NCBI GenBank assembly: GCA_043228905.1
Contig: JBHGNT010000009.1
Span: forward strand, 18,538,001-18,602,000
From: Azolla caroliniana
Lineage: Eukaryota; Plantae; Polypodiophyta
DNA: 64,000 bases
Reading direction: 5' to 3'
The translations under genes and the position numbers were made by a program. This document shows, piece after piece, positions 2,986-56,731 of the stretch (positions are counted from its first letter, which is position 1; each line of letters opens with the position of its first letter). The notes beneath the pieces were generated by a model that was given only the letters and a program-made list of their open reading frames with translations, did not search any database and was not told the DNA's origin.

Positions 2986-3789
2986 TCAAGATTTGTATCA
3001 TCAAAGGTACTCGCACTGGACAATGTAGATGAAAATACTTGCTCAAGAGCATAAGGCCATAAAACTTACATCGCTAGAACCATCTTGATGCAATATACCC
3101 AAGCTTTGCTTGCTGTTGTAAATCATATCATTATGACAATCATCTTATAATATCGTGATATTAATGAAGGTCCAATCATGAGCTTCTATAAATGTATTCA
3201 TTGATCATGAAGGTAGGTAACCGAATGTAACTCTTAAAACTTATGAAAGGTTAGGTTTAAGTGCATGATTGCATTGTGAAGTGTGTCTATGTGTTTGTGT
3301 CCAAGTATATGTGTAAAATCCATTTACGCTTTATACATGCTTTAATATATATGTATGGACAAGCACATTTCAAATGTAGGTATAACGCAACTACCTAAGC
3401 AACATGCTTACACTGTACATATACACATGGAGAGAGAGAGAGAGAGAGAGAGAGATGACAATATTATATTATCATATGGACAATGTTGACAACATTTCCA
3501 ATGGGGCATCAAAAGAGCATTATAAGAGAGTCTCCTATGATGCCACATGCTTGCGTTTTCTTTGAAGATCACGAATATGTTACAAAAGGTTGCAACTATA
3601 TGTACCTAGGGGAGAAGGATTTGTCAAACAAAAAGTTGGAAGATATTGAGTGAGTGAGTGTGTGTGCGTGCACGTGAGAGAGATCGTTGCATGTAAATAC
3701 ACGATCGCTAATACAATTTGGTGACTTAAAAAATGTTCATGGATGTGAATCTTTCTTGGTTGATTTGATATTCTATCATGCATACACAT

Positions 3790-5880
3790 TCTAAAAAGTC
3801 ATGGGTTTGCTATCTCTAAGTCGGACTCTTCGTTGTTCATCCGGCAAGGCTTTGACGGTCCGGTATGTATACTCTTGTATGTGGATGATTTAGTCATCAC
3901 CGGACCGGGTCTTCCCGAAATCAACCGCGTCAAGTTCCAGTTGTCAGACGCATTCGAAATGAAGGACCTGGGGGACCTTCATTATTTTCTTGGGATCGAA
4001 GTGATCCGGACCCCCGACGGCATATTGCTCTCACAACAACATTACGTGTTGAATATGATGTATAAGTTCGGCATGATGGATTGCCGACCTGTCTCCACAC
4101 CCCTGGACCGGAACCAGAAGCTCCGTCCCAACTCCGGACCGGCCTGCAATGAGAAACGGTTCCGCCAGGTTGTCAAAAGCCTGATCTACTTAACCATCAC
4201 CCGACCCGACATCAGCTATCCGGTCGGCATGGTAAGTCAGTTCATGCAGAAGCCGACCGTGGAGCATCTTCAGTGCACGCAACGAATATTACGGTATGTC
4301 AGCGGCACTAAGGACCGGCGAGGTATACCCGAAGAGCTTGTCGGTTACACAGATGTTGACTGGGCCGGCGATGCGTCTGATCGCCACTCCACTTCCGGAT
4401 ACATGTTCTCCATAGGTAGCGCGGCCGTTGCGTGGAGCAGCAAGAAGCAGCCCACAGTGGCTTTGTCAAGCACTGAGGCTGAGTACCGGGCCGCTACCAC
4501 TGCCACTTGTGAAGCCATTTGGCTTCGGCGACTGCTGCGAGACTTGAGGATCGAGGTACCGACCCCGATCCCGATTTACTGCGATAACATGAGCAGCCTG
4601 CAACTCGCCAAGAACCCTGTGTTCCATGCTCGCACAAAGCACATCGAGGTGCACTACCACTTCGTGCGTGAGCGGGTCCTGAGCGGTGAAGTTGACCTAC
4701 GGTATGTTCATAAGGATCGGCAAGTTGCCGACATCTTCACCAAGCCGCTCGGATCGGACAAGTTGCAGCACTTTACCGACATGCTTGGTATTCAGCATCT
4801 CGATGTGCCGCACTTGAGGGGGAGAAGCAAGGGCAAAGTCTCTACCGAAATGGGCAAAGGCCAAAAAACTATTGAACCCGTCGGTAAGAGGAGAGCCGGA
4901 AGAAGAGGAGACAAGAAGATGAAGGAAGCCGAGTCGACGAAGGAAGTCGACACATCCGAACAGGTCGGAGCAAGCGGCTGTGAAGAAGAGTTGTGCACTC
5001 ATGAAGAGAAGTGCATGTTGTGCGGAGGTCATCACGACGGTACTGACCATGATGCGGAGTCGAATGAAGAATTCGATTTCGGCTCACCGGCTGAAGAAGC
5101 CGAGGGAAGCATGGAGAAGGCCAGGACTCGGAAGTGGTCCGATGTGGTGAGAGGCCTGAAGCCGAAAGTCGAATCGGAGTGTATCGATTCGGACAAGAGC
5201 TGGAACGAGTCGGAGACAGCTGACTCGGATCAACAGATGGATCCGGATGAGTCAGATCGACTGAAGGCCAAGGGGACACGGACACGGCGGAAGTCGATGC
5301 CATCGTGGGAGAACCGACGGATCGGCAAGCGCCGGAGTCACAACAATGTGAGTGTTGAGATGGGCCTATTGAGCAGACATGCCGACCGAGAGGGTCGAGG
5401 CGCGTAGAACCAAAGGGGTCGCGACAAACCGGACCAAACCGGACAAGGAGCGCGAGCAAGGCGGAGTGACGCCAGGAGAAGTCGGTTGGAAGAACCGACT
5501 GCCACATAGGTCGACACTACGACCCCACCTCAGGTTGAGCTTGAGGGGGAGTGTTGAGCGGCAAGCTCAACCGGAGCCGGATCGGCTGAATAAGCCGGAG
5601 CCGGTAAGCGAGACGGATCGGGCGAAATGGATCAGTATGACGGTGAGCAACCGAACCGGCAAGCAATGGAGGCCGGGTGCAATCCGTAACCGGAAGTCCA
5701 ATCGGAAGCCTAGTATAGGATAGACTACTAGGTAGCTATAGTCTCGTAGTAAGTGTCAGATGCTCGTGTGAGCATTGAAGTACATGGTACTTCTGTCAGT
5801 CCCAAGAGGACTTGTATAAATAGTGCTACTTAGCACAGTGTGTATACAGAGTCTTGATATAATTTTGAAATTGTGTTCTG

Positions 5881-6660: not shown

Positions 6661-9300
6661 AAGGCTTGAATTTGACGGGTTGGTCTTTAAGTTTTTTTAC
6701 GGGCACTTTTTAAAGATGTATGTCATATGACACGAGAGTGCCAAAACTAACATGTTATTTGACATACAAGTTTTAATAATGAAAAGCATATGATGCTTGA
6801 GCTATAGAAAGTATACAAAGATACACAAATAAACATAACTACCTCACAAAGATAATGAAATCATACAAATTGAATATTTAAATCATCATATATTTCTTAA
6901 AACCCAAAAAACAGAAAAAATGTTTATCATACCGTGACTCCTCATATTAAGCATTGTAAAATATGTGTCTACTTCAATGATAATATCCTTCTCTCTTTTT
7001 CTTCATACCAAAGGTTAAATATATCCCTCCAACAAATGTTTGATGTATCTTGAGCATTCAAGGATATAAACATCAAAGCATCTAAAGTTTCCAGAGATAA
7101 ATCGTTTCTAATATCATTTTTTATGATATTTTGACGTGAAAAACCTCGTTCACATGTTGTTGTACTAATAGGAATAGTCATACATAGTTGCCACAATTGC
7201 ATAATACCCGGAAATAATTGCCACCAAGATTGTGCTTTGCAACAAATATCCCATGCATCATGCATTCGTCTTCCTTTAGCAATTCTAACAAGCATACCAA
7301 CAAAATCTTCTCGTTCATTGAAGCATATTTTCATGTCAACAATTTGCCTATCAATATTAAACTTCCCAATAAGTTTGTGCAACCATTCCGTTGTCTTTTT
7401 CTCTCTTTCATTTTCCTCAATGGGATATGAAGACGGATTAAACAACTTTACAACATTGAAAAATGTAACATCCGGGAAACGATTGTTTAAGGCATCAATA
7501 ACATGTTGGACAAAGTCCTTTCCAATGCTAATGCATTCATCCAAACTACCATTTTCCACATTACCATGAAACATATTCAAGTTGAAATCACTATCTTCAT
7601 TCTCACTATCAAGACCACTTACTAGTCTTCTTGATCACTTACTAGTCTTCTTGATCGTTTTGTTACCTCCTTTGGGTTTGGAATTTGTATAAACTTCAAT
7701 GGATGTGAATGAGTAACATTATCACATCCAATATATGTGAGTATGCCATCTTTCATATTATCTAGAAAGTTTGTAAGAAACATAGACCCGGTGCCAAATG
7801 TTTCACAAGATAAATAGCGTCTTCGAAGTTTCTCATGGATGATATCCAAGTGAACACCAAGCATAGTTACATCCATTAATTCCCTTTGGAACTGCTCATT
7901 TAATGTATTTAATTCCACAAGAATATCTGCCAATAGGTGTAACATAAATTGCACTTGGAATATAGTAGCATACTCGTACCATTTTTTCTAATGTTTTTCC
8001 CATTACTCTAAAATTGCAGGCATAAGTGTAACTAGTCTCTCCATTACTTGACCTCGAGATAACCATCTTATGGAGTGAATTTTAAGCACCTTCAAATCAC
8101 CCTTACCATGTCGTTTCATTATTTCTTTTAGCTCCTTGTGTCTGTCTATTAGTTGACTTTCCCAACCAAGAGTATACTTTATTTGCAAATGCATCAAGGA
8201 ACCTAAACACATGTGCATGAGACATTATATATGTATCTTTTATGGCAAGTGCTTCACGATGTGCAATGCAATGCACTCCCAAAATATTAGGCATCATGGA
8301 TTGAAACTTAGAAATTGCTCCATTATTCTTACTTACCATAGATGATGCCCCATCACTTGCAAAAGCCACTAGTTTTTTTAAATCTAAATTGCTTTTCAAA
8401 ATGAATTCATTAATAGTATTATAGATACCTTCAGCTTTCCCATTTTCCACCGGAAGAAGACGCACAAATTTACATTGTGGCTCCCCTTTGCCACCTTCAC
8501 TTAAGTACAAGACATAGATAATGAGGTGTTTTTCCAATGTCAGATCGGTGCTTTCATCAATCAAGATGGAGAAAAATGGACTTCCACGAATTTCATACAA
8601 GAGTTTTCTTGTGTGGTTCTTCATAGCCATTAAGAATTCTCTTGTAGATTTAGCATTAGCATAAGCATTGTATTCATTTGAGGCAGGGGCATTTGGAGTA
8701 CCAAGTTCTCTTTGTAACTGACATTGTTTTACATATTTCTCTAATGGAATATCATTACAAGCATAAAACTGAACCAACTTCATGCATAAGATTATCCTCT
8801 CATTTTCTAAATGCATGATTTCTGAAATATTGTCATCCACATTTGCATTTTCCTTTTGTATCTTTACATGATACATATCACTTGTTATTACATGGTCGGA
8901 TGACTTAGAATGCTCATTCAATGATGACAATTGCATGCTAAGGGATCCACCATCTATAAAAACATTATTCCTTCTCGCATCTTCACACCACATGCATTTT
9001 ATTTTTTCATCACCTAATAAGGACTTTGTCAAATATGCCCATGGGTGGAGCAAAGTCCACTAGTTTCTCCACTTTCTTTTTGTTTTATTAGAAGAAGATG
9101 TTGACACATTTACATTTGTGACAACCTCTTCATCATTATTTGGAGTATCGTTAAGATGTGCTTTCTTGCAAAACACACTCTTAATCGAAGGTTGGTGTGA
9201 TCTATGTTTTTTGGGGCAGGACATACACTTGAAACTGAGGGAATTCACAAACCAAGAAAAAAAACAAAGATGAGATGGGCAATAAAGGATAGTTTCCACT
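6661..9300 (-). mobile_element. hAT DNA transposon with a ZNF862/C17orf113-like transposase pseudogene
   Basis: N-terminal zinc-finger-like CMWC..HSKSSDH, then FFSILIDESTD, FASDGASSM, HCIAHREALA, IRWLSRG and the hAT dimerisation motif TIPISTTTCERGFSRQNIIK. Broken by stops and frameshifts near 9060, 8100-8200, 8003 and 7622. Candidate terminus CAAGGCTTGAATTTGACGG at about 6660. Confidence 0.9.
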
Positions 9301-11399: not shown

Positions 11400-11715
11400 T
11401 TGGATTTTTTGGTGGTTGAATTTTTTGGTGTGACTAAACTTGTTATATTTGAATATTTGAGCTTTTTGTCTCCGAATATGTGTGATCTTTGGAATTTTCG
11501 GCAATTGAAAATTTTGGTGAGAAGAAACTTGTTATATTTGAATCTCTGCGTTTTTTGTCTCTAAATATGCTTGATATTTGGAGTTTTTGGTATCTGAATA
11601 TGCTTGATATTTGGAGTTTTTGGCATATGAATATGATTGATCGTTAAAGTTCTTGTTCTTTGAAGTTTTTGGAGACTGAAATTTTGTAACCTTTGAAGTT
11701 TTTGATCTTTTTAGA
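11400..11715. repeat. Degenerate ~30-bp minisatellite (GATATTTGGAGTTTTTGGTATCTGAATATGCTT-like)
   Basis: Repeated units are visible at 11440-11480 and 11530-11635. Confidence 0.7.
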
Positions 11716-11884
11716 AAATTGGGTCGGGGTAGATGCAAGTAGCCCAATTGGAAAACTGAATCTGCCGAGTTAGACGACATGAGTTGAGTTAGATGCCGGG
11801 TCAAAAAAAATTGTCAACCGGGTTACAAGTGAAAGAGACAGGAAAAGAGTTGGTTTGCATGTGGGCGAGGCGGGTAAGAAATGC

Positions 11885-12020
11885 CAAAGATAGGGACAAA
11901 CTCGGGCTAGAAATGACAGAGGTAGGAACAAGACCCGGGCTAGAAACGACAAAGGTAGGAGGAAACCCGACCTAGAAACGACAAAGGTAGGGACAAGGGA
12001 CAGAGCCAGGTTAGAAATGG
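11885..12020. repeat. ~33-bp tandem repeat (CTAGAAACGACAAAGGTAGGGACAAGACCCGGG), about 4 copies
   Basis: Direct inspection. Confidence 0.8.
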
Positions 12021-12467
12021 GTGCGTGCGCGCTTCTCCTGGATAATGATATGACATGGGTGCAGATATCACGAGATGATCAAAGGCATCTAACACATAAG
12101 AGATCAAAACCAGCCTTTGTAGCTTCTTACTTCTTGCTCAATTTATACATAGTTTGATACAAAGGTACCCATTTGGGTTGGCTTAGCTACATGCGTGGGA
12201 AAAAAGGGTGTGTTAAAAGGGTGGGTTGGCTTAGGTACATGCATGCTAAAAAGGGTGTGCTAAAAGGGTGGCACAAAGGAACAAATGCACACCACCGCAT
12301 AGATGCATTCTTTTTTGTCATGAGGCCTATATATTTAAGATTTGGTTGCAAATACTGGTAGACACGGATGGACGGACTGGTGGACAAATAGACGGACAGG
12401 GGAGGCGGAGGCGGAGGCATATGGACAAAGGAATGGCCAATGAATGAATGAATGTGCCACCATAACA

Positions 12468-12760
12468 ATACATACATACATACATACATACCTACGTACA
12501 TACATACATACATACATGCATGCATACATACATACCCATGTACATACACATATGCATGCATACATATACATACATATGTGTACACACATTCATAACAATA
12601 TGTATGTATGTACATGCATACATACGTACATACACACCATTCATAACAATACATGTACATGGAGGCAAATGGAGTTATGTATGTATGTATGTATGTATGT
12701 AGGCAAATGGAGTTATGTATGTATGTATGTATGTATGTATGTATGTATGTATGTATGTAG
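12468..12760. repeat. Compound microsatellite, (TACA)n followed by (TATG)n
   Basis: Direct inspection. It explains the spurious HTYI and MYVC ORFs. Confidence 0.95.
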
Positions 12761-12850
12761 ATAGTTGGCCATCCATTCAAATGCGTGAAGAAGAAGAAGA
12801 AGAAGAAGAAGAAAGAAGAAAGAAGAAAGAAGCCTTTTCTGTCTCCTCCA

Positions 12851-12859
12851 TTTCCCGCC
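12851..12859 (+). promoter_or_regulatory. Canonical E2F binding site TTTCCCGCC
   Basis: Exact match to TTTSSCGS, about 540 bp upstream of the ATG at 13395. Confidence 0.55.
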
Positions 12860-13336
12860 TCATTCACAGACCCAAAAAAAATGAATGAAGAAACTCTTCT
12901 AAGTTCTTCCCTCCCTCCATTCATTCATTTCGATTTACATTATTCATTTTCCCTCCCATCTCTCCATCGATCGCTCTCTATAATCATCTCAGAAGCAGAA
13001 GATCGCCATCGCCATCGCCATCGCTTTCTTCTTCCTTATTCTTCTTCTTCGTTCTCCTTCTCTGCCTTCATAATCCATTCATCATCCATACTCAGAAGCA
13101 GAAGATCGCCATCGCCATCGCTTTCTTCTTCCTTCTTCTTCTTCATCATCATCTTCTTCGTCCTCCTCCTCTGCCTTCATAATCCATTCATCATCAAATC
13201 CCATCCATTCCTCATCGCCATCGCCATCGCCATCAGGTCATCAGGCCACCGTCGCCTTCTCTATTGCCTTCTTCTCCCATCTATGTCCCTGTAACAGTCC
13301 CGTGACCCGCTCCTTCCCCCCTCCGATTCAAGACCG

Positions 13337-13381
<45 letters not shown>

Positions 13382-13394
13382 TCACTGCCGTGCC

Positions 13395-15903
13395 ATGGCC
13401 ACGGCTGGCTCTTCTCCCTTGCCCAATGTAGCAGGAGCCGGGAAGGTTACGGACACACAGGTAGCTTTCATGGTGGAATGCTACCTCAGAGACTGCCATT
13501 TCGCTAAAACCCTAGATCAGTTCCGCTCCGAAGCCGCACGCGTCTTGCAGCCTCTAAAATCGGTAGGTTCTCGACTTTTCGCTTCTCCTTCTTCTCTTCT
13601 TACTCTGTATTCTGTGTTATGTATTCATGCATGACTGTCTGTTCCTTCTCCCATGGGTTTTCTAACTTCCACAGTTCTTTCTTTCTTTCTTTGCTTCCTT
13701 CGTGCGTCTTCATCTTTTTCCTTCTTTCTTGACTCTGCATCTTTATATACGCCTTTCTGTATTTTATTGATCGGAGATGCAGATTCCGAAGGGTGCTCGC
13801 AGCCTAAGCGCGGTTCTGAATGAATATGTGCTTCTCAAGGAGCAGCAGATTGAGTTCAATAGCGAGAGGTCTCGAGTCCAAGCTCTGTTCAAAGGACTGC
13901 AAGAGATCGTTACTGTGTATCAATCTGTTTCTAATGGCGTCCTCGGAGGAGGAGGAGATCAATTTAACGCCATAGCTTCTCCTGTTCCCTATTCATCTTC
14001 TGCCTCTCCTTCGTCCCAGCAGATTGGTAAGACCAGAGGTCTCTGAAGTTAAGACACTACATTTACATTTCGATCATTCATGTATTGCATTTCATGGCTG
14101 ATCTCTTGACTGGTATGCCGATTCACCTGCATGGCAGTGGAAACCGTCTCTTCTCCTGCGGAGCCTGTGACCAAGGAAGGTTCTGGTTTCTTGTCTTCTT
14201 CTCTCGCCAAGAGAAAAAGCCATGTAATTGACTCTGACACAACGAATAACAACGATTGCTGCATTATTGAAACAGCGAATAAGAAAGCACGCCCGACTTC
14301 TTCCTCGCAGGCGAAGCTCTCGTCTTCTTCTCCATCGCCATCTCCTGCACAAGGTTAGTCTCAGCTCTTCCTGTACAAGAAAACACGGTCTTTGGTATTT
14401 CTTTTGATATGATCATTATCTCTATTTCGCAATCTCTGCAGGAATTCTGATGCAGACTGATCATAACTCTGCTTCGTCTGATCGATCCAACAATAGAGGT
14501 TCAGCTCAACCTAGAACGCCTCCGGTGAAGATTGAACAGAGACAAGCAATATCGTTAACACCTGCATCTCATTCTAATTCTGGGTCACCTTCTGCTATAC
14601 AGCAACAGCAGAAGCCAAATCCCGTGTCTCCACATGTAAACACCATAGCCTCAGTGTCATCAGCACCGACAGCTAACCACTTCCTCTCTCCATTGAGAGC
14701 TAACAATTCTTCTACTTCGCTTCTTCAACATGGTGTTGCGGATTCCCCAACACCTTATCTGCATCCTTCTGCTACCGCAAAGTTGAATAATAGCTCTAAT
14801 AGTAGAAGGATTAATTCTGCCGCTCCCGGTTACACCCTTCGAGCTCCCAAAGAATCGGATCTTTCTTCTTCTGCCGTTGCTAAACCTTCTGTTGCATCTA
14901 ACAGGAAGAAAGGAGGTAACAGTAAGTGCAGATTGTTGGACTTCTCTTCTGCTTCAAATGTTGCTGATTCAGTAGTCTCATCCTCCATGCCAAGTACTTT
15001 GACTGCACAAATCCATGCATCTTCATGCTCTTCGCCATCATCATCATCCTCTTCAGGACATATCCTCCCACAGCTCCCCTTGGAAGCTTCCACTGAGATA
15101 ACACAGCCACAAGCCGTTTCAGCTTCTGAGCTCCCACTGTCTTGCGATGGTGTCTTTTTTGACGATCTTTTTGATCTGGAGCTCGATGTGGATCTAATCT
15201 CTGAGCTCGAGGATTTACAGCCCATGAATGATGTTCTGGGATCTGCTTCTAGACCTCAAGCATCGGTCAGGTATGGTGATGATATCTGCATACTATCGTT
15301 TATCTGAAACCCACTGTTGATCAAGACCTTGATTTCTGATCCATATGTGCAGTGAAGAAGACACTATGGAGAAATCTTCTGATTCTGTAGAATCCTCTCC
15401 ATCTGATCGCAGAGTTCTGAGCGAGAAAGGAAACCTTTTAGGTAAGACAGATTACCATCTATACTATTCTATCCATCTCTTTACTCTGTCTAGTCCATGG
15501 ATATGAAGCCACTTTGCTTCTTCTTTTTTGTCTTATCTGCTGGTCATGAATTGAAATCCTTACGTTGAACCGTGTTATCTTGGTTACAGGTGGACATGGT
15601 GGTCATTTCGAAGGTCAATGTGTTCTACAGATGCAGGATATGGTGGGATCGTACTCTGTTTCTGGTTCTCCAAATCATTCCAAAGCTCTTCGCAGATATA
15701 GTCCATCTGCAGGTAAATAGATATTTTCATACAAGCATGATTCTGATTGTCGTTACATATTCTGATTCATAATGAATTGTGTTTTGGAGCTGTTTTGTTT
15801 CTTCTTCTCAAAGGGTTCCTCATCGTTCTTGTTTCTTGGTTCAGTTTCTGCGGAGAAGCAATGGACAGATAAAGAGAATGTGCCATCGCTGCCTGCCAAA
15901 TGA
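13395..15903 (+). CDS. LisH-domain Ser/Pro-rich protein (plant 'myosin-M heavy protein'/AT2G37960-like family; NPAT-like N-terminus). Exons 13395-13562, 13783-14026, 14138-14353, 14442-15270, 15353-15441, 15590-15712, 15845-15903
   Basis: All six introns are GT-AG and keep the frame. The N-terminus reads GKVTDTQVAFMVECYLRDCHFAKTLDQFRSEA..IPKGARSLSAVLNEYVLLKEQ and the protein ends WTDKENVPSLPAK*. Confidence 0.85.
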
Positions 15904-17049
15904 GCATCAGCCACAGGAATTCTCATTTTGCTAGAAGAATAGGGCTGTACGTTTTTGTATCATTGATCAGGCATCCGCAAGAAGATAATCTCTTAACCCT
16001 AAACCACTTATGATTGATCGATTGATCCTGAAGGGTTAATTCCTAAAACCTAAACCAGTTGTGATTGATTGATCCTAACTCCTAATTCCTAGATGATTGA
16101 ATGCCTGCACTTCTAGAGTGTTTCCTAATCATCTACCAGAGAATTCCTCCCAATTAACTATACTTGTTTGTGGCCATCTCTTCCTAGAATTTAACATAGT
16201 TTGCTAGAGCAATTAGGATTGTATTGGTTTTAGAATCTTACTTGGGGTTCTCCCCACCAAAATTGATGTATACTGCTGTTTGTTTCCATCGAAAGATCAA
16301 ATTGTTTTCTTTTGTTGCTCATAAACATGGGAATGCAAATGGTCGAAACTCTTGATTGCATACCAATCTTACAAATTGAATGGCAATGTCAACTTCAAAT
16401 ATATTCACTGAATGGCAATTTCAGCTTCAAATATATTATTCATTGGCATGTTTGAATCGTTGAACCATCAAATTTACAATAATCGTGGTATTAACTGAAA
16501 ATAGGATATAACCACACATGTGGAAGCAAAAAATGGTTATGGTGCTTGTGGGTGTATGGAGCTCGTCTCCTTGAAATCACAATAGAACTAAGCCACCCTC
16601 CATAGGATTGTTTGATGTCTTGCTTACACCCACACCTACTATAGTGTAGCACAAATAAGATATGATGTGAACATCTCTCTGGATGGTGTAATAGGATTCA
16701 AGTCAGTTGAATCAATTAATCCGGTTTCTTGGCATATGCATCATTAGAAACAATGGTAATTTCACCATAACATGTGGTGGTTGTGTTATGATTTTTCTTT
16801 GTTTCAATGACTCCAATTCTCAAGTCTTGTAGGTTATAATGTGACATTGATGAAACCCAAACTTTGTTATTGCTTTTGCTTGTTCTAATGTTTGCTCTTA
16901 TGCTTGTACCAAGATGCTTAGAGGTAGCCTATTCTTAATTTGATTCCCTTTCTTTCTTGAATTTTATTCTAAAGATACAATTTTATTTTTCAAAGCCAAA
17001 ATGTGATAAGGTGGACATGAGATAATGGGCTATATGGTCATCTTAGATT

Positions 17050-18700
17050 GGTAGGAGGCTCTTGTCTCACCATGCATTCTTTTTTACTTTAATCCTTTTG
17101 GTTTTTTTCCCCAATAGAGATTACATTTGCATTCAAAAAAGCCCTAAGGTTGTACATAAACTCTGTACATGTAGTTAAGCTCGTGCTAAGTTCTAACTTC
17201 TAACTATTGGCTTAAATAAATACTTTGGTATAGAGTAGAAACATTTGCGTTGTCTAAAATCCACCTATAAAATATTCCTTTGTCCCATATGGCATGAAAC
17301 TCTTAAGTGTAACTTTGCTTGTTGCATACTACCTTTTGTGTTATCCAAAGAACCTCTAAGATTATGCACAATTTTTGTCCACATCCTAGTCTATTAGTTA
17401 TTTAAGTAGGTCTTTTAGTCACATTTTGGAATACCGTCAAACATCTAGCCTTCCAAATATACCAAATGTTACCTATTGGCATAGTTTAGGTTTACCAATC
17501 TTTATTTGAGGTATGCTTGTTTTTTGCATCAAATCATGTCTCATAGAAAGAGCATACGCAACATCCTCTTGTTCATATAACATTTGGTTAACCTTGTACC
17601 ATCGACCATAATATCGCGCCTTATGTTTAGCCGCTCAAGAATAATATCGCGCCTTATGTTTAGCCTTATGTTTAGCCGCTCATTACGATTCTTTCTCATA
17701 TTCCCATCGCAAAATCACAACTATACAAACAATGCTTAGCAATTTCCTCTAGATTTGTACAAAAAGGACGTATGTGGTTGGCGTTCACCCCTTTTTGCCA
17801 ACCATTAACTAGTTTTTTTAAAAAGTATTTTTATAGGTTACTTAGCAAAAAACATGACTTTTTAGCCCATAAGTCATTCTTGTGATGAAGCAATTTATGC
17901 TCATCCAACATACTAGTGAACAATACTTGACGATTGGAGGTGAGTGAAACTCTTGTCAATGGTTGAAATGTTTGGTCAACCCTCTTATCTTCTCAAGTCT
18001 ATTAACCTCAAGCAAAAGAGAAGGGAGGAAAGACGTTGTGACAAAACATAATGAGTGAGCAAGTGTAACCTTTGCCGCTTGATAGAATCCAAGATTGACT
18101 TCACTAATGAAACATGCTCAATGAGCAAAGGCCAATAAAGAGTGAAGGGTACTAGTAGTGTCAATTTCTAGCCTTGCATTGAATGTCCAATAAACTCTAG
18201 ACTAAGAAATTGCCCTTACATCAAAATATGATGGTTGTGAGATCATCCCACGAAGTAAATATTGCGCCTACAAGTTGTTATAACTATCCAATACACTTGA
18301 ACAAAAAGTATCCCAAACTTGTGGTGGGTTGTCAAACTTAAATCTCCATAGTAGCCAATTTCTCCGAAAAGTGAAGGCCTTGACGAATAGAGTCTACGGA
18401 ATGTAAAAGGGAATGGATTGTGGATACACACAAATGGAGACTTAGGATCTCGATGGTCAATGTAACGCATGAATTATGAACAATTTCTACCTTAGGTAAA
18501 ACCTAAACAATACCTTGGTTTCTTTTGACCCAACTTCCTAGCTACTATTTGACAATAAGCTCTTAACGTTTAATAATGAAAGGGCATAAAGTTCAAGTGA
18601 AATGGTGGCATTTCAACTAAAATGATACATATTTGCAATACTATATGTTTGCATTTTTGTCATTTTGTTGTCTAGACTTTTTACAAATGATAAAGTAATA
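17050..18700 (-). mobile_element. Highly degraded LINE ORF2 C-terminal remnant
   Basis: Minus frames give EEIAKHCLYSCDFA (zinc knuckle) and IWYIWKARCLTVFQN..MWTKIVHNLRGSLD, paralleling the LINE tail at 1820-2220. Boundaries approximate. Confidence 0.6.
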
Positions 18701-19849
18701 ATAGCAATGTATATAAGATTCATTTATTAGGAAACCTAATCTAGTATGTGTTATGCGGATGCCGAGTAGGTGTTTTCTTGAGATATTGAATCATAATTCA
18801 TACCTTGGCAATTGTTCTTAAGTAAATGGTGGTTTTCTTTTTTACTTGATTATGCGACTATAATTAGTTTCTTCTTTCATGTATTCCTAACTTCTTTTAT
18901 TGCTTTTTTGGCTTTGTTCACAAAGTGCACAAATGAAAATCATCATGAAGGCATACTAAATGGACATCATACATAACTTTTATCTTTGGTGGTGTCGTGT
19001 ACAATGTTTTGTCACATCAACATGTAGTGAATTGTGTGTAGGTTGAATGGGATTAGAGAGTGATCCATCCCAAATATAGAGGATGAAGGGGTGAGGTGGA
19101 CTATAAAGAGAGGCTATGGGGAGTCGGGACCTAAGAGTAACATGCTTACATAGGTAGGGGTGAGTAATCATAGTTTGTGGTAATGGCACTTGTTAAATCC
19201 AATACCCCCATGATAGGTGTTTAAGAGAGTCTTGGAGTTCGAGTTCGGATGCGACGGCGATGACGACACATGGTTTACAAGTGTAAAAAGAATTGTGGGT
19301 AGATAGGCTGCAACGGTGCTTGTCCATATCTAAAAGTGTGGAAGCCATTCCTTCTATATGCGCTCTGCATTGCCTAGGGAAAGGAGACACTAAAATCTAT
19401 GTTGTCCATTCCATGAGGGAGGACCAAGAGTGTGGGTTTGAACTACACACGATGAAATGTGGTGGAAGACCTGTGTCTTCCTCATCCATTTCCTTCTTGT
19501 GTGTACATACATGCATCTATCTATCTATCTATCTATCTATATATAGGTATAGATATATGGCACTAGCTTTTGTGTCCTCTTGAGAAGTTAGGTCCTCCAA
19601 TCCCATGTGGCAACTCATCTACCTATTGGCAATCACAATTGTTCCCTCTTGTAGTAGCCATGCATGGTCCGTCAAATCCTTACACTACAATGTCAAAATA
19701 GTTTGGTCTTAATAACATAATTTGGTTTGGGCTTAGTTGGTTTAGCATATTAACTTGTTGCATAAGATTTTGAATTGCAAATCGATCCCACTCTGTTGCT
19801 ATTGTGCCAACCACCACCGAGACATCCATGCAAGAGGGAGATCTTGTCC

Positions 19850-22357: not shown

Positions 22358-22760
22358 AAATGAGTTGCTACTTAATATTTGGACACAAAGGAAAAGGAAT
22401 ACCAAGAGCAAATAAAAAGAAAAAGAACTTATTTAACTAATTTGAAATTAAAAATAAAATTTAAATTAATAGATTAAATTTAAAATTATTAAAAACCAAT
22501 TTATATACAGTATTCTTTCTTCTGCATGAACTCTTCTTCTTCTTCTTCTTGAAGCTTCCGCCATCGCCATCGCCACCGCCTCGCCTCTCTCTCTCTGTCT
22601 CTGTGTGTCTTTATCTGTCTCTCTGTCTCTGTGTGTCTTTATCTGTCTTTCTCTCTCATTGATCCCTGCCTCATCACTATTGACCTGATCTTACCGCCAT
22701 AGCCAATACAACAATATAGCTCTGTGAATTTTAGGTTTCCCCACCTGTACGCTCGCCCCC

Positions 22761-25700
22761 ATGGATACTGCAGGTTTCGTGACCTCCCTCCTCACCTCCT
22801 TCGCCATCTTCTTGCTCCTCCTCGCTCTCCATGCCTGCCTCTCTCGCCTCCCTTCCAACTCCGTCATTTACTACCCGCGGAAGATCCTGAACAATATCAC
22901 GCCTCCTTCCAGGCCTGGTCCCTTCCTCTGGATCAAAGAATCTTACCTTGCAACTGAAGACGAGATCATCGGTCATGCTGGCCTCGATGCCACAATCTAC
23001 ATGATATTTCTTGGCTCTGGTAACATCCGAATTCGAATTCGCATCGAATGCATCTTCTTTGGATATTGTTCAGATTCGTTTCCTGATTCTCTTGCTTGTT
23101 TCGAAGCTTTCTCCACCATTTATGGCTGTTAATTGGTCAGAAAATAAAAAATACTGTTTTATGCTGATTCCTTTAAACAATCTGGTTTCTTAAAAGCATT
23201 TCTATAACTATTTGCCTTGCCTAACTCCAAATTTATTTCAAGCTGTGTATGATAAAAGCTTTTTAAGTCCTTACAACAATTATGGCTCGTTGAGGAAAAT
23301 GCAGCTTCCGTTATAGATTTAGATTCTTAAAATAGGGAAAAATGTCTACATTTCAACTTTGTATAGTATGATATTTGAGCTTTTTTTGGTTGCAGGCTAT
23401 GAGTGAAACAGAAAATGATAAAAGGAATTAATGCATTTTCCTGTTGCATTGTTTTGTGGTAAATAGCTCTTTCGATTTGTCTGTATACTGCATTCTTCTG
23501 CGTGCCTGTGCTGCTTCCGCTATCTGGAACAGACCATAATTTCAAGGTGACAGGCCAGAACAATGCTTCGAGTAATACTTCAAATTCAAATTTCGACAGG
23601 GTTGCTATGGGGAATGTCCGGGTAAGTGCATTGAAACGTGAAACTGGAAAATAATCTGAGAGATGAGAAATTTGAGGATTCATATAGAGAGAAGTGTAGA
23701 GAGTGAGAATGATGAGTGATGATGGCATGTCTCCTGTATTCTGGATGTAAAATTTAAACATAATTTCCCCAGAGGAAGACAAAGAGTGTGAGTTGGATTT
23801 CTCTTTGGCAATAAATTTGAGCTTATTGGAAATCAAAAGAGATTTAGATTTCTCTGCATGTTGCAAATGGAAAATTTGAATTCATCAGAAGAAATATGTA
23901 TATATTGACATATACACAGAGAGAGAGAGATATAAAGAGAGAGTATATTGTTTACTCTTTGTTCCTAATTTGATTTATTCGTGTTTTTGATATGTCAGGA
24001 TGAGAGCAAACGCCTGTGGGCTTTTGCAGTTGGAGCATATTGGCTCACCATAGCCACATTTTATGTTCTTTGGAAATCTTACAAGCACGTCATCCTCTTG
24101 AGAACTCAAGATCAATCATCTCTGACGGCTAAACCAGAGCAATATGCTGTTCTTGTAAGGGATATTCCTTCTCCTCTCACAGGATCTATAGCTCAAGAGG
24201 TTGAAGATTACTTCAGAAGTCTGCATCCAGGAACCTATGAGAGCTTCATCATCGTGACTAACATGTCCAAGGTAAACCTCGATTTGAATCTTTCAATGCT
24301 AGAATTGTTCTGATATAGCTTTAAATGTCAATTCGCCTTCTATTTGTTTTTGTTTTTCTCATTTTCTGCTTCTGTTTTGGCGTTGTTGATCTATCTATCA
24401 CCACTCAGATTAATTCCCTCTTTTATCTGCCCTTTTTCTAAGATATTCAATTCATGTCCTGATGCAATTTTGCATTATTTCTCGCTTTGCTTGCTTTCAC
24501 TTTGCCGTTCTAGGGATTTTGGTCATTCCCTGCTTCTGTTTACTGTCCTTGATGTCTCTGTTGTTGCTCAGATTAATGCTGGCTCTCCTTAGACAAGTTC
24601 TTTCTATTAGTCCAGAAGAAACGCCCGACAGCTACACATCTACCACGATGAGGTGATAAACAACATATGTAAAGGGTAAACTTTTCTCTGGTATTTGTTT
24701 TAGGTCTCCAAGATCTGGGAGAAGATGGAGGGGTTTAGGAAGAAACAAGCTCATGCAGAGACAGTATATGAACAGACAAAGTCTCGGCCCACACATAAGA
24801 CTGGGATTCTGGGTCTCTGTGGACCCCGAGTAGACTCCATTGATTATTACAAGGAAGAGAAAGAGAAGCAAGCAGCTGCCCTCAAAGATGAGCAGATTCT
24901 CACACAATCTAAACTTCAGAAAGGCTCTGCCATAGTCTTCTTCAATAGTAGAGCTGCAGCTACAAGTGCTGGTCAGGTTAAAAAGAAAACTTTCTTTCTA
25001 TTTGCTTATTGTCTGTACCATCTTCTTTTGATTGAATGCATGCATTTCTTTATGTATTGCCATGTAATGGGGTATGTTTCAATGTACAAAATCAACACAT
25101 CCAAATTGCATTGTTGGGTTTTCTAATTGGCTATGTAAGTAGGCTATATATAGCTAGCATTTTCTTAAAGGGGAAATTACAGAAAAACATATGCTTTAAA
25201 TCCTCAGTTCATAAAAGGAATCCCACTGTAATACTATTCAGAACTGTGGCTATCTATTATTAATGATCTGATTAATGCAGTAATCTCTTTTCCATCTGAG
25301 AATGTGAAACACTTTCATGTTAGGCTTAGTTTCTGTGATAAATGTATAGTATTGTTTTTAAAACAGGTTATGCATAGCCCCTTTGCTAATCAGTGGACGA
25401 CTTATCCGGCTCCGGAACCTCGAGAAGTGGTTTGGAGAAACCTACCTATTCCATTGGTGCAAAGGCTCATCCGGCAATTTATTGTCTATAGTTCGGTTGT
25501 TCTCATGATACTCTTCTACATGATACCCATCGGTTTTATCTCGGCAATCATCTCCCTCAATAACCTAGTCAACAAGCTTCCATTCCTGAAACCCATCGTA
25601 GATATCCCGGTGGTCAATGCAATACTCCAAGCTTTCTTGCCTCAGCTCGTGCTCGTTATCTTCCTTTTCTTGCTTCCTTTTATCTTATTGAAGCTCTCGG

Positions 25701-27620
25701 ACATCGAGGGCATTCCTGCACAAAGCCTTCTCGTGAGAGCAGCTGCCGGAAAGTATTTCTACTTCAACGTGTTCAATGTTTTCTTGGGTGTGACCATAGC
25801 GGGAAGTTTGTTCAACTCCCTTAAAGGCATTGTAGACGATCCCAAGTCTGTTGTAAATTTGCTAAGCGAATCGCTTCCTGGGCAAGCCACCTTCTTTATT
25901 TCATTCGTAGCCCTCAAGTAAGTTACTTCCCCCTAAATTGTTGTTAGAAACATATGCATAAACCATATACCTTCATGAACTCAAATTATGTTACGAACAA
26001 GCCCGTTAGCTTGAATACATAGCTAAGGTTTGGGAATATAGGGGTACCATCTTGGCGACCACAATTTAGAAAGTTATGGTCTTAACATGGATCTAAGATT
26101 AATTTGTCACATAATGCAATTGTTGAGTTTACCACAATTTGGAGAGTTTTAATTTGGATATAGATGTAGGGTCAACTAATATATAAGGCTAACTACCCTA
26201 ATGTGAACTCCACATGGTGAACATTATAGATACAATTCTACCTTTAAGGTGCACCATTGTTTTCCAAGTTTCCACAATTAGTTAGGTGGAAAAGTCTTGA
26301 ATTTATTCTTCAATCCTACTACTTTCTCTTTAAGGTGCACCATTGTTTTCCAAGTTTCCACAACTAGTTAGGTGGAGAGGTTAACACTCAATTTCTCTAC
26401 TTTCTCGCTAGTTATTCTATTTATTTTGTTCACGGCCTCAAGCCTAACTTTTGGTTGGAATGACAAAGATTTTCCCATGCGGTTCACAATGATATAACTA
26501 ATGTTTATCATGACCTTGCTTACAGGTTCTTCGTGGGCTATGGCTTGACATTCTCTAGGATAGTTCCACTTGTCATCTTCCAATTGAAAAAGAAGTTTCT
26601 TTGCAAGACGGAAGAAGAAATCAAAGAGGCTTGGGCTCCTGGGTCTTTTGACTATGCAACATGTGTGCCTAATGATATGCTCATTTTGACAATCACTATT
26701 TGCTATTCAGTGATAGCACCAACTATTTTGATATTTGCCATAATCTATTTTTCCTTAGGATGGCTGCTCATGCGGAATCAGGTAAGCAAATGTCACCATG
26801 ACGTGTCTTCTCATGTATCTATTTTTCCTTAGGATAGCACCAAATAATATAATTGTGAAGTTGCATACACCTATAGATTTATACAATTTTGTATGCACCT
26901 TTATGGTGTATGTTAACCTTAATCTTGCTCATCAAAGATGTTAGTATGTACACATATAGACCGAAGTTAAAACATATCATAGCTTTGGAGGTGTATCTAT
27001 ACAAAATGTATGCCGACACACCATAGTTAAATGCATGTACTAAAAATGTATGCACATTGATGATATACTTGCAAATTCGCATACATCTTATGTTATCATT
27101 TAATTGTAAATTTGTTTATGCTTGTATTATCATATAAATGTATACGTCTTTAGTGTGTGAGATCTTCACACCTATATTATATAATAGAGTGAAGTTTTGT
27201 ACACGCGCACACCAATGATCATTCCCTTATTCACTCCATTGTTTTTGTGTTTAGGCTCTCAATGTGGTGGTGCCAAGCTATGAAAGTGGAGGGCGGATGT
27301 GGCCTCACATGCATTCAAGGATACTAGCTTCTTTGTTCTTGTCCCAACTCACCATGTTAGGTTATTTTGGTGTTAAGAAGTTTGTGTATGCACCATTGCT
27401 ATTCCCACCACTAGTAGCAACAATCGTGTTTGCATATATATGCAAAAAGTTCTTTTACCCATCTTTTGTTGTACCTCCTCTCTCTGCTAGTTGCAAGGAA
27501 GTGAAAGAGCCACCGTCGTTTGGATCAATTGTAGAAGCATATACCCCTCCTCCATTAACCCCCCCAAATCTGGATGAAGAGGCGTCATCTAAACATCATG
27601 GACAAGTGATTGACTTATAG
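22761..27620 (+). CDS. ERD4: CSC1/OSCA mechanosensitive channel, ERD4 (OSCA3.1) type. Exons 22761-23019, 23467-23621, 23999-24271, 24704-24976, 25367-25917, 26526-26781, 27255-27620
   Basis: MDTAGFVTSLLTSF..IYYPRKIL, AGLDATIY, PEQYAVLVRDIP, RPTHKTGILGLCGPRVDSIDYY, APEPREVVWRNL, SLPGQATFFISFVALKFFVGYG and RNQALNVVVPSYESGGRMWPHMH. Introns are frame-consistent GT-AG. Confidence 0.96.
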
Positions 27621-29499: not shown

Positions 29500-29990
29500 A
29501 CGGCCTGGGCTGGGCGAATCAATCATGAGGGAATGGACACCCAATGCAACGGGCGCCGGACAAAACTCACGGGACATTGGGACAAAACTCATGGGCCCGA
29601 TGGCCGGGGAAGAAGCTTATGGACAAGAAGAGTCTAGTTTTTCCTTTAAACTTATGGATGGTTTTATGCTAATAGGGTTAGGGTTAGGGTTAGGGTCCTC
29701 TCTTTTAGGGTTTTGGATTAGGGTTTCTCTTTCTGGGTTCTCTTGTCTTGTATCTTGTTAAACTTGTGGACAAAAGAGTCTAGTTTTCCTTTAAACTAAA
29801 CCTATGGGTTTTTTTCTGCTAATAGGGTTAGGGTTCTCTCTTTGAGGGTTTTGGATTAGGGTTTCTCTTTTCTGGGTTTCCTCGTCTTGTATCTTGTTAA
29901 ACGAGAATTAGGGTTTCCTGATTCTCTTCCTTCTCCTCGCCGAGCTTAACTTCTTCTTATGCATCAGACGCAGACAGGTTAGGGTTTCTC
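29500..29990 (+). promoter_or_regulatory. Site II (TGGGCC/T) and telo-box (TAGGGTTT) cluster, including a ~145-bp tandem duplication
   Basis: TGGGCT at about 29506 and TGGGCCC at 29592. TAGGGTTT at about 29706, 29719, 29857, 29909 and 29980. The unit TGGACAA..AGAGTCTAGTTTT..TCTTGTATCTTGTTAAAC is duplicated at about 29618-29763 and 29765-29902. Confidence 0.6.
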
Positions 29991-30026
29991 CCTCCTTCTG
30001 TATATCATCTGCCTGTCTGCTCCGCG

Positions 30027-31571
30027 ATGGCTTCACCCGCAAGGAGCGTCGCGGCGGTAAGCTCTAGCCCTATTTCCCCTCCTTCACCATGGATCGACAG
30101 TCCCCGATCCTCCACTGATTCCATCTCCCGGCCCAGGCGATCTCTTCTCTCTGCTCATTTCTCCAAAAAGAAATACTCGGAGCGGAAGCAAGAGCCAGAG
30201 AAGGCCGATGGATTGCCCTTGCCCCGAACTATGGATATGGCAGAGGTCCTTCACGCGATGGAGAGGAAAAAAGGCGAAGAAGAAGAAGAAGACGAAGAGG
30301 ACAAGGATGCCGAAGACTGTGAAAGCGATGGAATGTCTCACATAGTGGATGTGACAGACATGCTTCACGATATGGAGCAGACGACGGATGATGATGGAGT
30401 CTATGGGATACTTCAAACGGTACATATGGATTACCTGATGGAGCGTAAGACGGACTATGAAAGAGACAACAACGGCATTCTTCTAGCAGTGAATACGGTG
30501 GAGATTCTTCACTCGATGGATCAGAGGACAGATAATCCTTGTGATGATGGTGATGAAAGAGACTGTGGAATGCTTCAAACTGTGGATATGGCAAAGGCAA
30601 TTACCATAATGGATCACAAGACAGACAAGAACGATGAAAACGAATTAACTGATACTTTGGAGCCTGCTCAGATGATGAAGCAGACAACAACAGATGACGA
30701 TAAAAGTGATAATCGACCAGTGGCTATGGCAGATCTGCTTAATTACACAATGCAGCTAAAGAATATTGATGATGGAGGTGAAGAAGAAGGTAGAATTGGC
30801 AGGCTTTCGAAAAGCTTGCCTTCTCCCAGCAGTTCTTGGGAATTATTTGACGAGCCAGGAACACCTCCAGAGGTGGCTGCCATCTCCAATCTTCCTCCTC
30901 CCATGGCTCCCAAGAAGAGCTCCAAGAATCGTATTATTCCTTTAGGCAAACAGCGCCCCAGGAAGCTCATATTTGGTGACAGTGAATCGTCAGATCTCCC
31001 GCAAGAACCTATGGATACTCTTCAAGAAGATAGATCCTCAGGCACACAAGGCCATTCCAGGCTCTTAATTAATGAAGATGTACATGCAGATCTCCATGGA
31101 CCAGATGATATGCAAGAAGACAGATCATTAGGTAAACAATGCAATCGTAGGAACTTGTTTGGGGAAGATGTACTGCAGGCTGAGCCTTCAGATGTCGTCG
31201 ATCAGGTACATATGGATCTGCAAGAAGACAGATCTTTTGGCAAACTACACCAATGTAGTCTCTTATTTGGTGAAGATGAACGTCATGAACCGAGTGCAGA
31301 GCTTCATCAGAATCCTCTTAATCTGCATGGAACTAGACCTGTAGAACTCCATGAATGGCCTTCCGGTCTGCAAGAAACCAGACCTTTAATAGGCAAACAA
31401 CTACATCGGAATCTCTTATTTGGTGAAGATGAACAACAAGACGAACGTTCAGAGATTCAACAAAGGCCTAAAGAAACTAGAAAATCCTCCTCCTCCCCTT
31501 CGTCTGCTTCTTCTTCTTCTTCTTCTTCTTCTTCTTCCTCTTTTTCTGTCCGAGTCATGCAATTACGTTAG
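30027..31571 (+). CDS. Intronless acidic, probably disordered 514-aa protein with two internal repeat arrays and an SMR-like core; function unassigned
   Basis: Long uninterrupted ORF in good start context (GCGATGG), preceded by a telo-box promoter. No TE domain recognised. Confidence 0.75.
   Translation: MASPARSVAAVSSSPISPPSPWIDSPRSSTDSISRPRRSLLSAHFSKKKYSERKQEPEKADGLPLPRTMDMAEVLHAMERKKGEEEEEDEEDKDAEDCESDGMSHIVDVTDMLHDMEQTTDDDGVYGILQTVHMDYLMERKTDYERDNNGILLAVNTVEILHSMDQRTDNPCDDGDERDCGMLQTVDMAKAITIMDHKTDKNDENELTDTLEPAQMMKQTTTDDDKSDNRPVAMADLLNYTMQLKNIDDGGEEEGRIGRLSKSLPSPSSSWELFDEPGTPPEVAAISNLPPPMAPKKSSKNRIIPLGKQRPRKLIFGDSESSDLPQEPMDTLQEDRSSGTQGHSRLLINEDVHADLHGPDDMQEDRSLGKQCNRRNLFGEDVLQAEPSDVVDQVHMDLQEDRSFGKLHQCSLLFGEDERHEPSAELHQNPLNLHGTRPVELHEWPSGLQETRPLIGKQLHRNLLFGEDEQQDERSEIQQRPKETRKSSSSPSSASSSSSSSSSSSFSVRVMQLR

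Positions 31572-48589: not shown

Positions 48590-56731
<8,142 letters not shown>

What the first reader, a model, noticed from the sequence alone, without database searches (positions are those of the whole stretch)
13395..15903. Candidate plant NPAT/Mxc-like histone-locus-body scaffold: LisH, LNEY helix and DLFD motif
Seen: the spliced protein begins QVAFMVECYLRDCHFAKTLDQFRSEA...RSLSAVLNEYVLLKEQ. A long SP/TP-rich low-complexity region follows, then acidic FFDDLFDLELDVDL (DLFD at 15164-15175). Known: human NPAT begins with a LisH domain (recalled as DVARLVLGYLQQENLISTCQTFILES...KNLTTILNEYVAMKTKE), is a cyclin E-CDK2 substrate and recruits TRRAP-Tip60 through an LFD motif to activate histone genes. 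Inference: the LisH-then-LNEY arrangement plus DLFD suggests this poorly annotated plant family is an NPAT counterpart. I know of no established plant NPAT orthologue.
Basis: partly seen in the sequence, partly recalled or inferred. Interest (0 to 1): 0.85.

Follow-up and report, generated by a model that had tools for sequence, protein, structure and literature searches.

The report
Plant cell-cycle protein resembling animal NPAT
This intact gene of a fern-like plant belongs to an unstudied family found across land plants; its protein is predicted to pair with itself, is likely switched on as cells start copying DNA, and may be the plant version of NPAT, the animal protein that turns on histone genes.

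Summary
13395-15903 is an intact seven-exon gene (575 aa); all six introns are joined in a relative's probable RNA contigs. It belongs to an uncharacterised family found from liverworts to eudicots.

The family has a LisH fold, an LxxΦLx[ED]Y helix that lengthens into a coiled coil, a disordered region with four-fold enriched CDK sites, an RLxDF cyclin-docking-like motif (51 of 57) and an acidic-hydrophobic block. A homodimer is predicted. Both paralogs here have upstream E2F sites, and the presumed Arabidopsis members are published E2F/MYB3R3 ChIP targets. The genome keeps SLBP and histone 3' stem-loops.

The NPAT link is suggestive, not shown. No NPAT sequence could be retrieved, so the profile test was not run. 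Eight Mxc residues named in print match plant columns; five more distal ones do not. Literal DLFD occurs in only 4 of 51 homologs. The closest solved fold is TBL1's, so LisH plus helix is not NPAT-specific. The family persists where SLBP was lost.

Best reading: a CDK- and E2F-regulated nuclear co-activator, likely the counterpart of NPAT's transcription arm (0.45). A full histone-locus-body scaffold is less likely (0.12).

The parts
12851..12858 (+). E2F consensus site TTTCCCGC, 543 nt upstream of the ATG
   Evidence: the paralog has two TTCCCGCC at -374 and -313; background chance about 0.06-0.15 per 600 nt
13395..13562 (+). Exon 1: start codon and LisH motif (about 13449-13544; VxxYL at 13473-13487)
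13783..14026 (+). Exon 2: LSAVLNEY helix (13804-13827) running into a long predicted helix or coiled coil (to about 13929)
14138..14353 (+). Exon 3: disordered; KRK basic cluster at 14209-14217, a likely nuclear localisation signal
   Evidence: KR[KR] in 46 of 57 homologs
14442..15270 (+). Exon 4: S/P/T-rich disordered region holding PRTPP (14510-14524), the RLxDF motif and the acidic block
14924..14944 (+). KCRLLDF, the KGRLDF-type motif of the family; resembles an RxL cyclin-docking site (resemblance from established knowledge, binding untested)
   Evidence: 51 of 57 long homologs
15146..15223 (+). Acidic-hydrophobic block with DLFD at 15164-15175; likely activation domain
   Evidence: 11 D/E and no K/R in residues 441-475
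15353..15441 (+). Exon 5
15590..15712 (+). Exon 6
15845..15903 (+). Exon 7: DKENVP (KEN-box-like, 15871-15879) and stop codon
   Evidence: kept in the paralog and in Adiantum; KEN in the last 60 aa of 2 of 57 homologs, [KQ]EN in 11 of 57

Best explanation
The gene encodes a LisH protein of an uncharacterised land-plant family that is predicted to dimerise and likely acts as a nuclear, E2F-induced, cyclin-CDK-controlled transcriptional co-activator, most likely the plant counterpart of NPAT's histone-gene-activating arm. Steps: (1) E2F and MYB3R repressors likely limit its transcription to cycling cells. Promoter sites are seen here; ChIP binding is published for the two presumed Arabidopsis members. 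(2) The KRK cluster likely takes it into the nucleus (inferred). (3) LisH and the LxxΦLx[ED]Y helix form a predicted dimer, with the helix packing on the partner's LisH as proposed for Mxc. (4) A cyclin likely docks on RLxDF and CDK phosphorylates the SP/TP sites at G1/S (inferred from motifs). (5) The acidic-hydrophobic block would recruit an acetyltransferase or Mediator-type co-activator. Having no DNA-binding domain, the protein would be tethered to promoters by a sequence-specific factor (inferred). (6) The C-terminal KEN/QEN could trigger APC/C turnover in some lineages (inferred). That the targets are histone genes is the least supported step.
For: Intact spliced gene and a paralog with the same motifs. 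Family from Marchantia to eudicots; its tree roughly follows plant phylogeny. LisH fold. Mxc V14, Y17, L18, L58, I61, I62, E64 and I68 (named in PMC4395134) fall on columns that are nearly always V, Y, L, L, I/M, L, E/D and L. The paper's 9-residue SIF motif scores 6.6 bits on the plant helix profile, P=8.5e-4 against random 9-mers. Self-association score 0.53, best of 3 controls 0.06; mark reached by 21 of 30 solved homodimers and 0 of 23 single chains; runs agree in at least 52% of contacts; partner pLDDT at least 62; helix residues 64 and 67 touch residue 22 of the other copy. Full CDK sites 180 against 48 in shuffles (maximum 69 in 200) over 57 homologs; RLxDF in 51 of 57; F[DE]Φ[DE] in 33 of 51 against 2.4. 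E2F sites upstream of both paralogs and of 1 of 4 grass-like loci, whose upstream stretches were only 59-334 nt. AT2G37960 and AT3G54060 are both in the E2FA, E2FB, E2FC and MYB3R3 ChIP lists of 4,520, 2,870, 1,838 and 1,566 rows. NPAT is itself an E2F target (paper title in a reference list) and has a putative KEN box. The genome keeps three SLBP genes and animal-type histone stem-loops.
Against: No NPAT or Mxc sequence was obtained, so homology beyond generic LisH is untested. With the LxxII positions fixed, the 9-mer match is only P=0.05, and at 6.6 bits it scores below all family members that have the helix (11.4 or more). Mxc L6, H7, L71, V72, V76, L79 and P80 do not match, and the V-to-L spacing is mostly 39 against 44 in Mxc. 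TBL1, a co-repressor subunit, gives the best fold match over LisH plus helix 3, so the dimer pass may be from memory of such structures. DLFD is poorly conserved (4 of 51) and KEN is rare (2 of 57). The window protein has only one full CDK site. The two Arabidopsis ids are recalled, linked only through the NCBI name of a Camelina homolog, and thousands of genes are E2F-bound. The protein is well under half the length of NPAT (1,427 aa) or Mxc (1,837 aa). Nothing here ties it to histone promoters.
Confidence: 0.45

Rival explanations
1. A cell-cycle-regulated nuclear LisH co-regulator built separately from a TBL1-type module. It acts on other E2F/DREAM-linked or chromatin targets and resembles NPAT only through generic LisH, CDK-site and acidic-patch features.
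For: The best structure and best PDB sequence match is TBL1. No NPAT hit in any search. All 18 named homologs, of 20 looked up, are land plants. The motifs are short and common among CDK substrates. A survey paper treats NPAT as metazoan.
Against: The sequence alignment to TBL1 stops before helix 3, whereas the published Mxc helix residues do fit. The searches that missed NPAT were insensitive by design. Other parts of the animal-type histone pathway survive in this genome.
Confidence: 0.3
2. A full histone-locus-body scaffold as in animals, gathering histone genes with FLASH, U7 snRNP and SLBP into a nuclear body.
For: Predicted self-association and a long disordered region. SLBP genes and 22 of 22 stem-loop pattern hits lying behind histone genes. 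LSM10 and LSM11 are reported in land plants.
Against: The family is kept in Selaginella and angiosperms, which lack SLBP and polyadenylate histone mRNA. Histone locus bodies are not described in plants. The one histone group examined holds only H3 genes, 4 in 60 kb. Only a pair of the 4 copies had a confident interface.
Confidence: 0.12
3. A structural LisH-coiled-coil or LisH-disordered protein of another compartment: nucleolar or Cajal-body (SRP40/Nopp140-like) or cytoskeletal (RELCH/FOP/OFD1-like), under CDK control.
For: Atlas leads are RELCH clusters at 0.77 and 0.80, within chance range. Among 12 other LisH candidate loci in the genome, the best-scoring exon (13.9 bits, L070) looks SRP40-like by recall. 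MYB3R3 binding would also fit a mitotic role.
Against: A conserved acidic-hydrophobic block and KRK cluster suggest nuclear transcription. There are no alternating acidic and basic repeats of the Nopp140 kind (that family feature is recalled).
Confidence: 0.13

Closest known systems
NPAT (vertebrates) / Mxc (Drosophila)
   Same: N-terminal LisH followed by an LxxΦΦxE helix used for self-interaction; long disordered body with CDK sites; acidic LFD-like patch; KEN-like box; E2F-controlled gene; no DNA-binding domain.
   Different: About 380-720 aa against 1,427 and 1,837. Helix 3 continues as a long coiled coil and distal Mxc SIF residues do not match. DLFD is not invariant. No NPAT_C (PF15712) match in any of 78 members. 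A FLASH-binding C-terminus was not testable. The family persists without SLBP.
TBL1X/TBLR1 N-terminal tetramerisation domain (PDB 2XTC, 2XTD, 2XTE); plant HOS15
   Same: Best fold match: TM 0.75 by target over 65-69 columns, VIA Z 5.9 over 72 residues, Foldseek E about 0.1; similar first LisH helix.
   Different: No WD40 propeller. The sequence match covers LisH only. The genome has separate HOS15-like LisH exons (L075, L076; name recalled).
Database labels 'myosin-M heavy chain-like' and 'LisH domain-containing protein'; Pfam PF27702 on one soybean member
   Same: This is that family.
   Different: The label carries no function and no myosin domain was found. The name of PF27702 could not be read.
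Yeast Spt21 / Ams2
   Same: KEN-box, S-phase-peaking histone-gene activators that a review compares with NPAT.
   Different: No sequence comparison was made; functional analogy only.

Membership tests
LisH-domain proteins | Two-helix LisH motif with VxxYL that dimerises | tested here: met
   V in 78 of 78, Y in 77 and L in 76; Pfam LisH_PAC1 in 36 of 78 at E<=0.1, best 2e-4; top fold hits are LisH proteins; dimer predicted
NPAT/Mxc | N-terminal LisH | tested here: met
   shared with many families
NPAT/Mxc | SIF helix LxxII after the LisH | tested here: inconclusive
   L58, I61, I62, E64 and I68 match; L71, V72, V76, L79 and P80 do not; P=8.5e-4 overall, 0.05 given LxxII
NPAT/Mxc | Significant, specific profile similarity to NPAT/Mxc N-termini | not testable with these tools
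   No NPAT sequence could be fetched; the searches were thin, word-limited or not calibrated for parts of proteins
NPAT/Mxc | Self-association of the N-terminus | tested here: met
   Prediction only: 0.53 against best control 0.06; may reflect memory of solved LisH dimers
NPAT/Mxc | Cyclin-CDK substrate (CDK sites, docking motif) | tested here: inconclusive
   Family-wide enrichment 180 against 48 and RLxDF in 51 of 57; one full site in this protein; phosphorylation untested
NPAT/Mxc | Conserved LFD motif recruiting TRRAP-Tip60 (motif in NPAT recalled; primary paper not held) | tested here: not met
   As a literal motif: DLFD in 4 of 51, LFD in 7 of 51 against 2.9 shuffled. A looser acidic-hydrophobic block is conserved, 33 of 51 against 2.4
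NPAT/Mxc | NPAT_C domain (PF15712) or FLASH-binding C-terminus | tested here: inconclusive
   No PF15712 hit in 78 members or in the genome, where no positive control rang; the breadth of that model was not checked
NPAT/Mxc | Concentrates at histone loci and is needed for histone gene expression | not testable with these tools
   Needs imaging, ChIP and mutants
TBL1/HOS15 | LisH plus C-terminal WD40 propeller | tested here: not met
   No WD40 in 78 members; the model of P0007 has no confident fold after residue 105

The most novel reading that the evidence does not exclude
This family is the true plant orthologue of NPAT/Mxc, so the CDK-driven histone-gene activator predates the plant-animal split. 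In ferns and mosses it works beside a retained SLBP/stem-loop pathway, possibly in an undescribed plant histone locus body, and in flowering plants it survived the loss of SLBP as a purely transcriptional S-phase switch.
Probability: 0.35. Interest if true: 0.88.

Novelty: new variant of a known kind. Interest (0 to 1): 0.64.

Why it matters
How plants couple scattered histone genes to S phase is named as an open question in a 2026 review (PMC13525598), and histone locus bodies are not described in plants (PMC9445803). Two 2026 surveys show SLBP and histone stem-loops persist in early-diverging plants, yet neither main text mentions NPAT. This family gives a concrete candidate with a Marchantia gene (Mp6g07930) and two presumed Arabidopsis genes, so one knockout and one ChIP would settle it. 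Even if the NPAT link fails, it is an unstudied land-plant-wide protein with strong cell-cycle hallmarks.

Tried and rejected
Fetching NPAT or Mxc sequences failed, and none of these blanks shows absence.
- The HMMER scan of 1.84 billion representatives used a thin profile from 7 rows that kept intron-coded columns; it gave 131 hits, none longer than 716 aa.
- The word-indexed search of 999-2850 aa proteins scored 7,989 candidates and returned 2 plant proteins. The near-length search returned 4 proteins.
- Atlas hits scored 0.77-0.83, within chance range; two were unnamed, mostly chordate clusters of 69 and 124 aa that could not be identified.
- The metagenome scan gave 6 loci of 136 pattern hits, all plant-like.

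Other dead ends.
- Rfam RF00032 over the genome scored 75 of 92,783 candidates; its 7 sub-threshold hits had no histone ORF nearby. The real stem-loops came from reading histone 3' ends.
- NPAT_C genome search: nothing, with no positive control.
- No run was on record as RNA.
- The two primary NPAT papers were not held.
- The two Arabidopsis ids were absent from 3 supplements of PMC12915602 and from the RBR ChIP sheet of PMC10477330.
- The tetramer was not resolved; only one pair had confident contacts.
- Earlier scan notes held nothing related.

Rejected: pseudogene or misreading; myosin relationship; LxCxE RBR-binding motif (loose matches in 6 of 58, scattered); histone genes beside the locus (none among the 24 of 87 ORFs scanned).

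Full report
The gene. Reading 11500-19500 and splicing by coordinates gives seven exons with GT..AG introns and a 575-aa product. Contigs of run X3, a relative whose RNA status is a guess, skip all six introns at the predicted places, while the probably-DNA run X9 reads through them. The genome (523 Mb) holds a paralog on contig C15 that keeps LisH, SLSAVLNEY, RKCRLLDFS, the acidic block and DKEN. The closest named homolog is from the fern Adiantum, 69% identical over the N-terminal domain, so the organism is likely a fern. Neighbours among 24 of 87 ORFs scanned are copia and hAT remnants, an OSCA/CSC1-type channel, PIG-U and a BSK-type kinase; none is a histone.

The family. A profile search of 1.84 billion representatives gave 131 hits at E<=0.001. 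Of 20 looked up, 18 carry land-plant names (Marchantia, Riccia, Sphagnum, Selaginella, Diphasiastrum, Adiantum, Ginkgo, Taxus, Amborella, Nymphaea, monocots, eudicots) and 2 carry no taxon. Sources call them hypothetical, LisH-containing or 'myosin-M heavy chain-like'. A tree of 21 N-terminal domains roughly follows plant phylogeny, with 8 of 18 inner branches well supported. The 78-row alignment shows a conserved N-terminal domain and then islands: KRK, PxTPP, SPxK, KGRLDF and an acidic block.

Structure. AlphaFold2 on the Adiantum homolog gives helices 19-32, 36-45, 47-50 and 63-104 at high confidence and no confident fold elsewhere. A 148-aa homolog folds the same way. Foldseek's top hits for both are the TBL1 tetramerisation domain (TM 0.75 by target, E about 0.1), then LIS1 and SMU1; none reaches E<=0.001. 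VIA-align puts TBL1 first at Z 5.9 over 72 residues, tied within 1 Z with unrelated single helices. Four copies of residues 12-106 scored 0.53 against a best control of 0.06 (mark reached by 21 of 30 solved homodimers and 0 of 23 single chains; runs share at least 52% of contacts; pLDDT at least 62). One pair had a confident interface, in which helix-3 residues 64 and 67 touch LisH residue 22 of the other copy. LisH dimers are textbook, so the pass may be from memory. The trans LisH-helix contact is what the Mxc paper proposed.

Test against NPAT/Mxc. I used residues named in PMC4395134 instead (passages; section 7). V14, Y17, L18, L58, I61, I62, E64 and I68 fall on matching, near-invariant plant columns. 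L6, H7, L71, V72, V76, L79 and P80 do not, and the V-to-L spacing is 39 in 54 of 77 rows against 44. The paper's 9-residue motif scores 6.6 bits: P=8.5e-4 against random 9-mers, but 0.05 once L, I, I are fixed. This is suggestive only.

Motifs, in the 57 aligned homologs of 380 aa or more (patterns were written after seeing the alignment). RLxDF is in 51 of 57. Full CDK sites number 180 against 48 in shuffles, and SP/TP 735 against 458. KR[KR] is in 46 and PxTP[PTSA] in 41. In the 140 residues after RLxDF (51 proteins): DLFD 4 (0.4 shuffled), LFD 7 (2.9), D[LIVF]FD 10 (0.9), F[DE]Φ[DE] 33 (2.4). Liverworts, Sphagnum and Selaginella read IDDIL there, ferns DDLFD or DELFD, angiosperms DIFD, EIFD or DLFD. 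So the block is real and old, but DLFD is one spelling of an acidic amphipathic segment. PMC4705935 shows the motif in E2F2 and adenovirus E1A too. That NPAT itself carries LFD is recalled; NPAT's recruitment of TRRAP/Tip60 and its putative KEN box come from PMC5706932. KEN lies in the last 60 aa of only 2 of 57, [KQ]EN in 11.

Cell-cycle control. The window gene has TTTCCCGC at -543 and the paralog has TTCCCGCC twice; background is 0.06-0.15 per 600 nt, and the pattern is not enriched in the window as a whole (5 against 7.2 expected). AT2G37960 and AT3G54060, which I recall as the Arabidopsis 'myosin-M heavy protein' genes and could not confirm by sequence, are both in the E2FA, E2FB, E2FC and MYB3R3 ChIP sheets and the EM class of PMC10477330, and not in the RBR sheet. 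The text says that class is enriched for cell-cycle terms. [quoted passage not shown]

Genome context. Three two-exon SLBP matches pass the Pfam cut-off. Of 15 histone ORFs read, 11 have a 6-bp stem and 4-nt loop within 130 nt of the stop. A pattern built from them hits 22 places genome-wide against 0 for the reversed control, and all 22 follow histone genes: 20 core and 2 H1-like. This is not new. PMC13130582 reports SLBP and poly(A)-less histone mRNA in moss, fern and a cycad, with loss in Selaginella and angiosperms, and bioRxiv 10.64898/2026.10.14.759114 reports LSM10 and LSM11 in land plants. It raises the prior that an NPAT-like factor survives in plants. Since the LisH family is kept where SLBP is lost, any such role would be transcriptional, not tied to 3' processing. 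The H3 group on C20 is H3-only, 4 genes in 60 kb.

Mechanism and verdict. Shown: intact gene, family range, conserved motifs, promoter sites, histone stem-loops and SLBP. Predicted: LisH fold and dimer. Inferred: nuclear location, cyclin docking and phosphorylation, activation by the acidic block, histone genes as targets. I put the NPAT-like co-activator reading at 0.45, an independent cell-cycle co-regulator at 0.30, a structural role elsewhere at 0.13 and a full histone-locus-body scaffold at 0.12. It is filed as 'works like NPAT, membership untested'; the literal LFD criterion fails.

Literature. Searches for a plant NPAT counterpart or for this family listed no paper proposing the link. 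I saw titles and abstract starts for most, one search showed 15 of 966, and subscription journals are mostly missing. Read as passages: PMC13525598, PMC9445803, PMC12819152, PMC5706932, PMC10730174, PMC8004629, PMC1794435, PMC11613458, PMC4705935 and PMC13130582. Passages plus one section: PMC4395134. Outline and passages: the preprint, whose supplements are closed and could list further factors. Passages plus supplement searches: PMC10477330 (one scanned file unreadable) and PMC13445536. Supplement search only: PMC12915602. PMC545797 holds both 'NPAT' and 'LisH' and was not read. A newer Pfam family, PF27702, is recorded on one soybean member and may already carry a name.

Noticed in passing
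G000:C20:13,889,811-13,890,384 (L006) and C20:13.91-14.03 Mb (L017, L018, L020-L022): An SLBP gene lies 23 kb from a group of five H3 genes, four of them with stem-loops. No other histone type was found in the 60 kb read.
   Followed up: partly
L037-L058, 5-12 nt after each stem-loop: Many histone genes share a CTG(A)TGATT-like element just downstream of the hairpin, seen by eye; a candidate histone downstream element that could be used to find a fern U7 snRNA.
   Followed up: no
L037 (G000:C1:2.24 Mb) and L039 (G000:C2:27.41 Mb): Two H1-like genes carry the stem-loop; L037 appears to have an intron, unlike animal stem-loop histone genes.
   Followed up: partly
L016, L022, L029, L030: Two H3 and two H2B genes show no such hairpin within 130 nt of the stop, so both 3' end types may coexist in this genome.
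   Followed up: partly
L059-L062: A grass-like clade of the family reads from LisH through helix 3 in one open frame and has a shortened coiled coil.
   Followed up: no
P0002: A relative's first intron is in frame and stop-free, so gene callers read exon 1, the intron and exon 2 as one 210-aa protein.
   Followed up: no
P0142: A 1,228-aa Glycine soja model holds several tandem copies of the N-terminal domain, likely a fused tandem array; it carries Pfam PF27702.
   Followed up: partly
window 3764-5407 (+), 6969-9059 (-), 22728-27620 (+), 42244-42636 (+), 50105-50524 (-): Copia-type reverse transcriptase remnant, hAT transposase pieces, OSCA/CSC1 channel exons, a PIG-U exon and a BSK-type kinase TPR exon.
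   Followed up: partly
window 29922-31571 (+): A 549-codon stop-free frame with no Pfam match at E<=0.001.
   Followed up: no
window 12980-13200: The presumed 5' leader holds a direct duplication of about 90 nt and ATCGCC and CT repeats, seen by eye.
   Followed up: no
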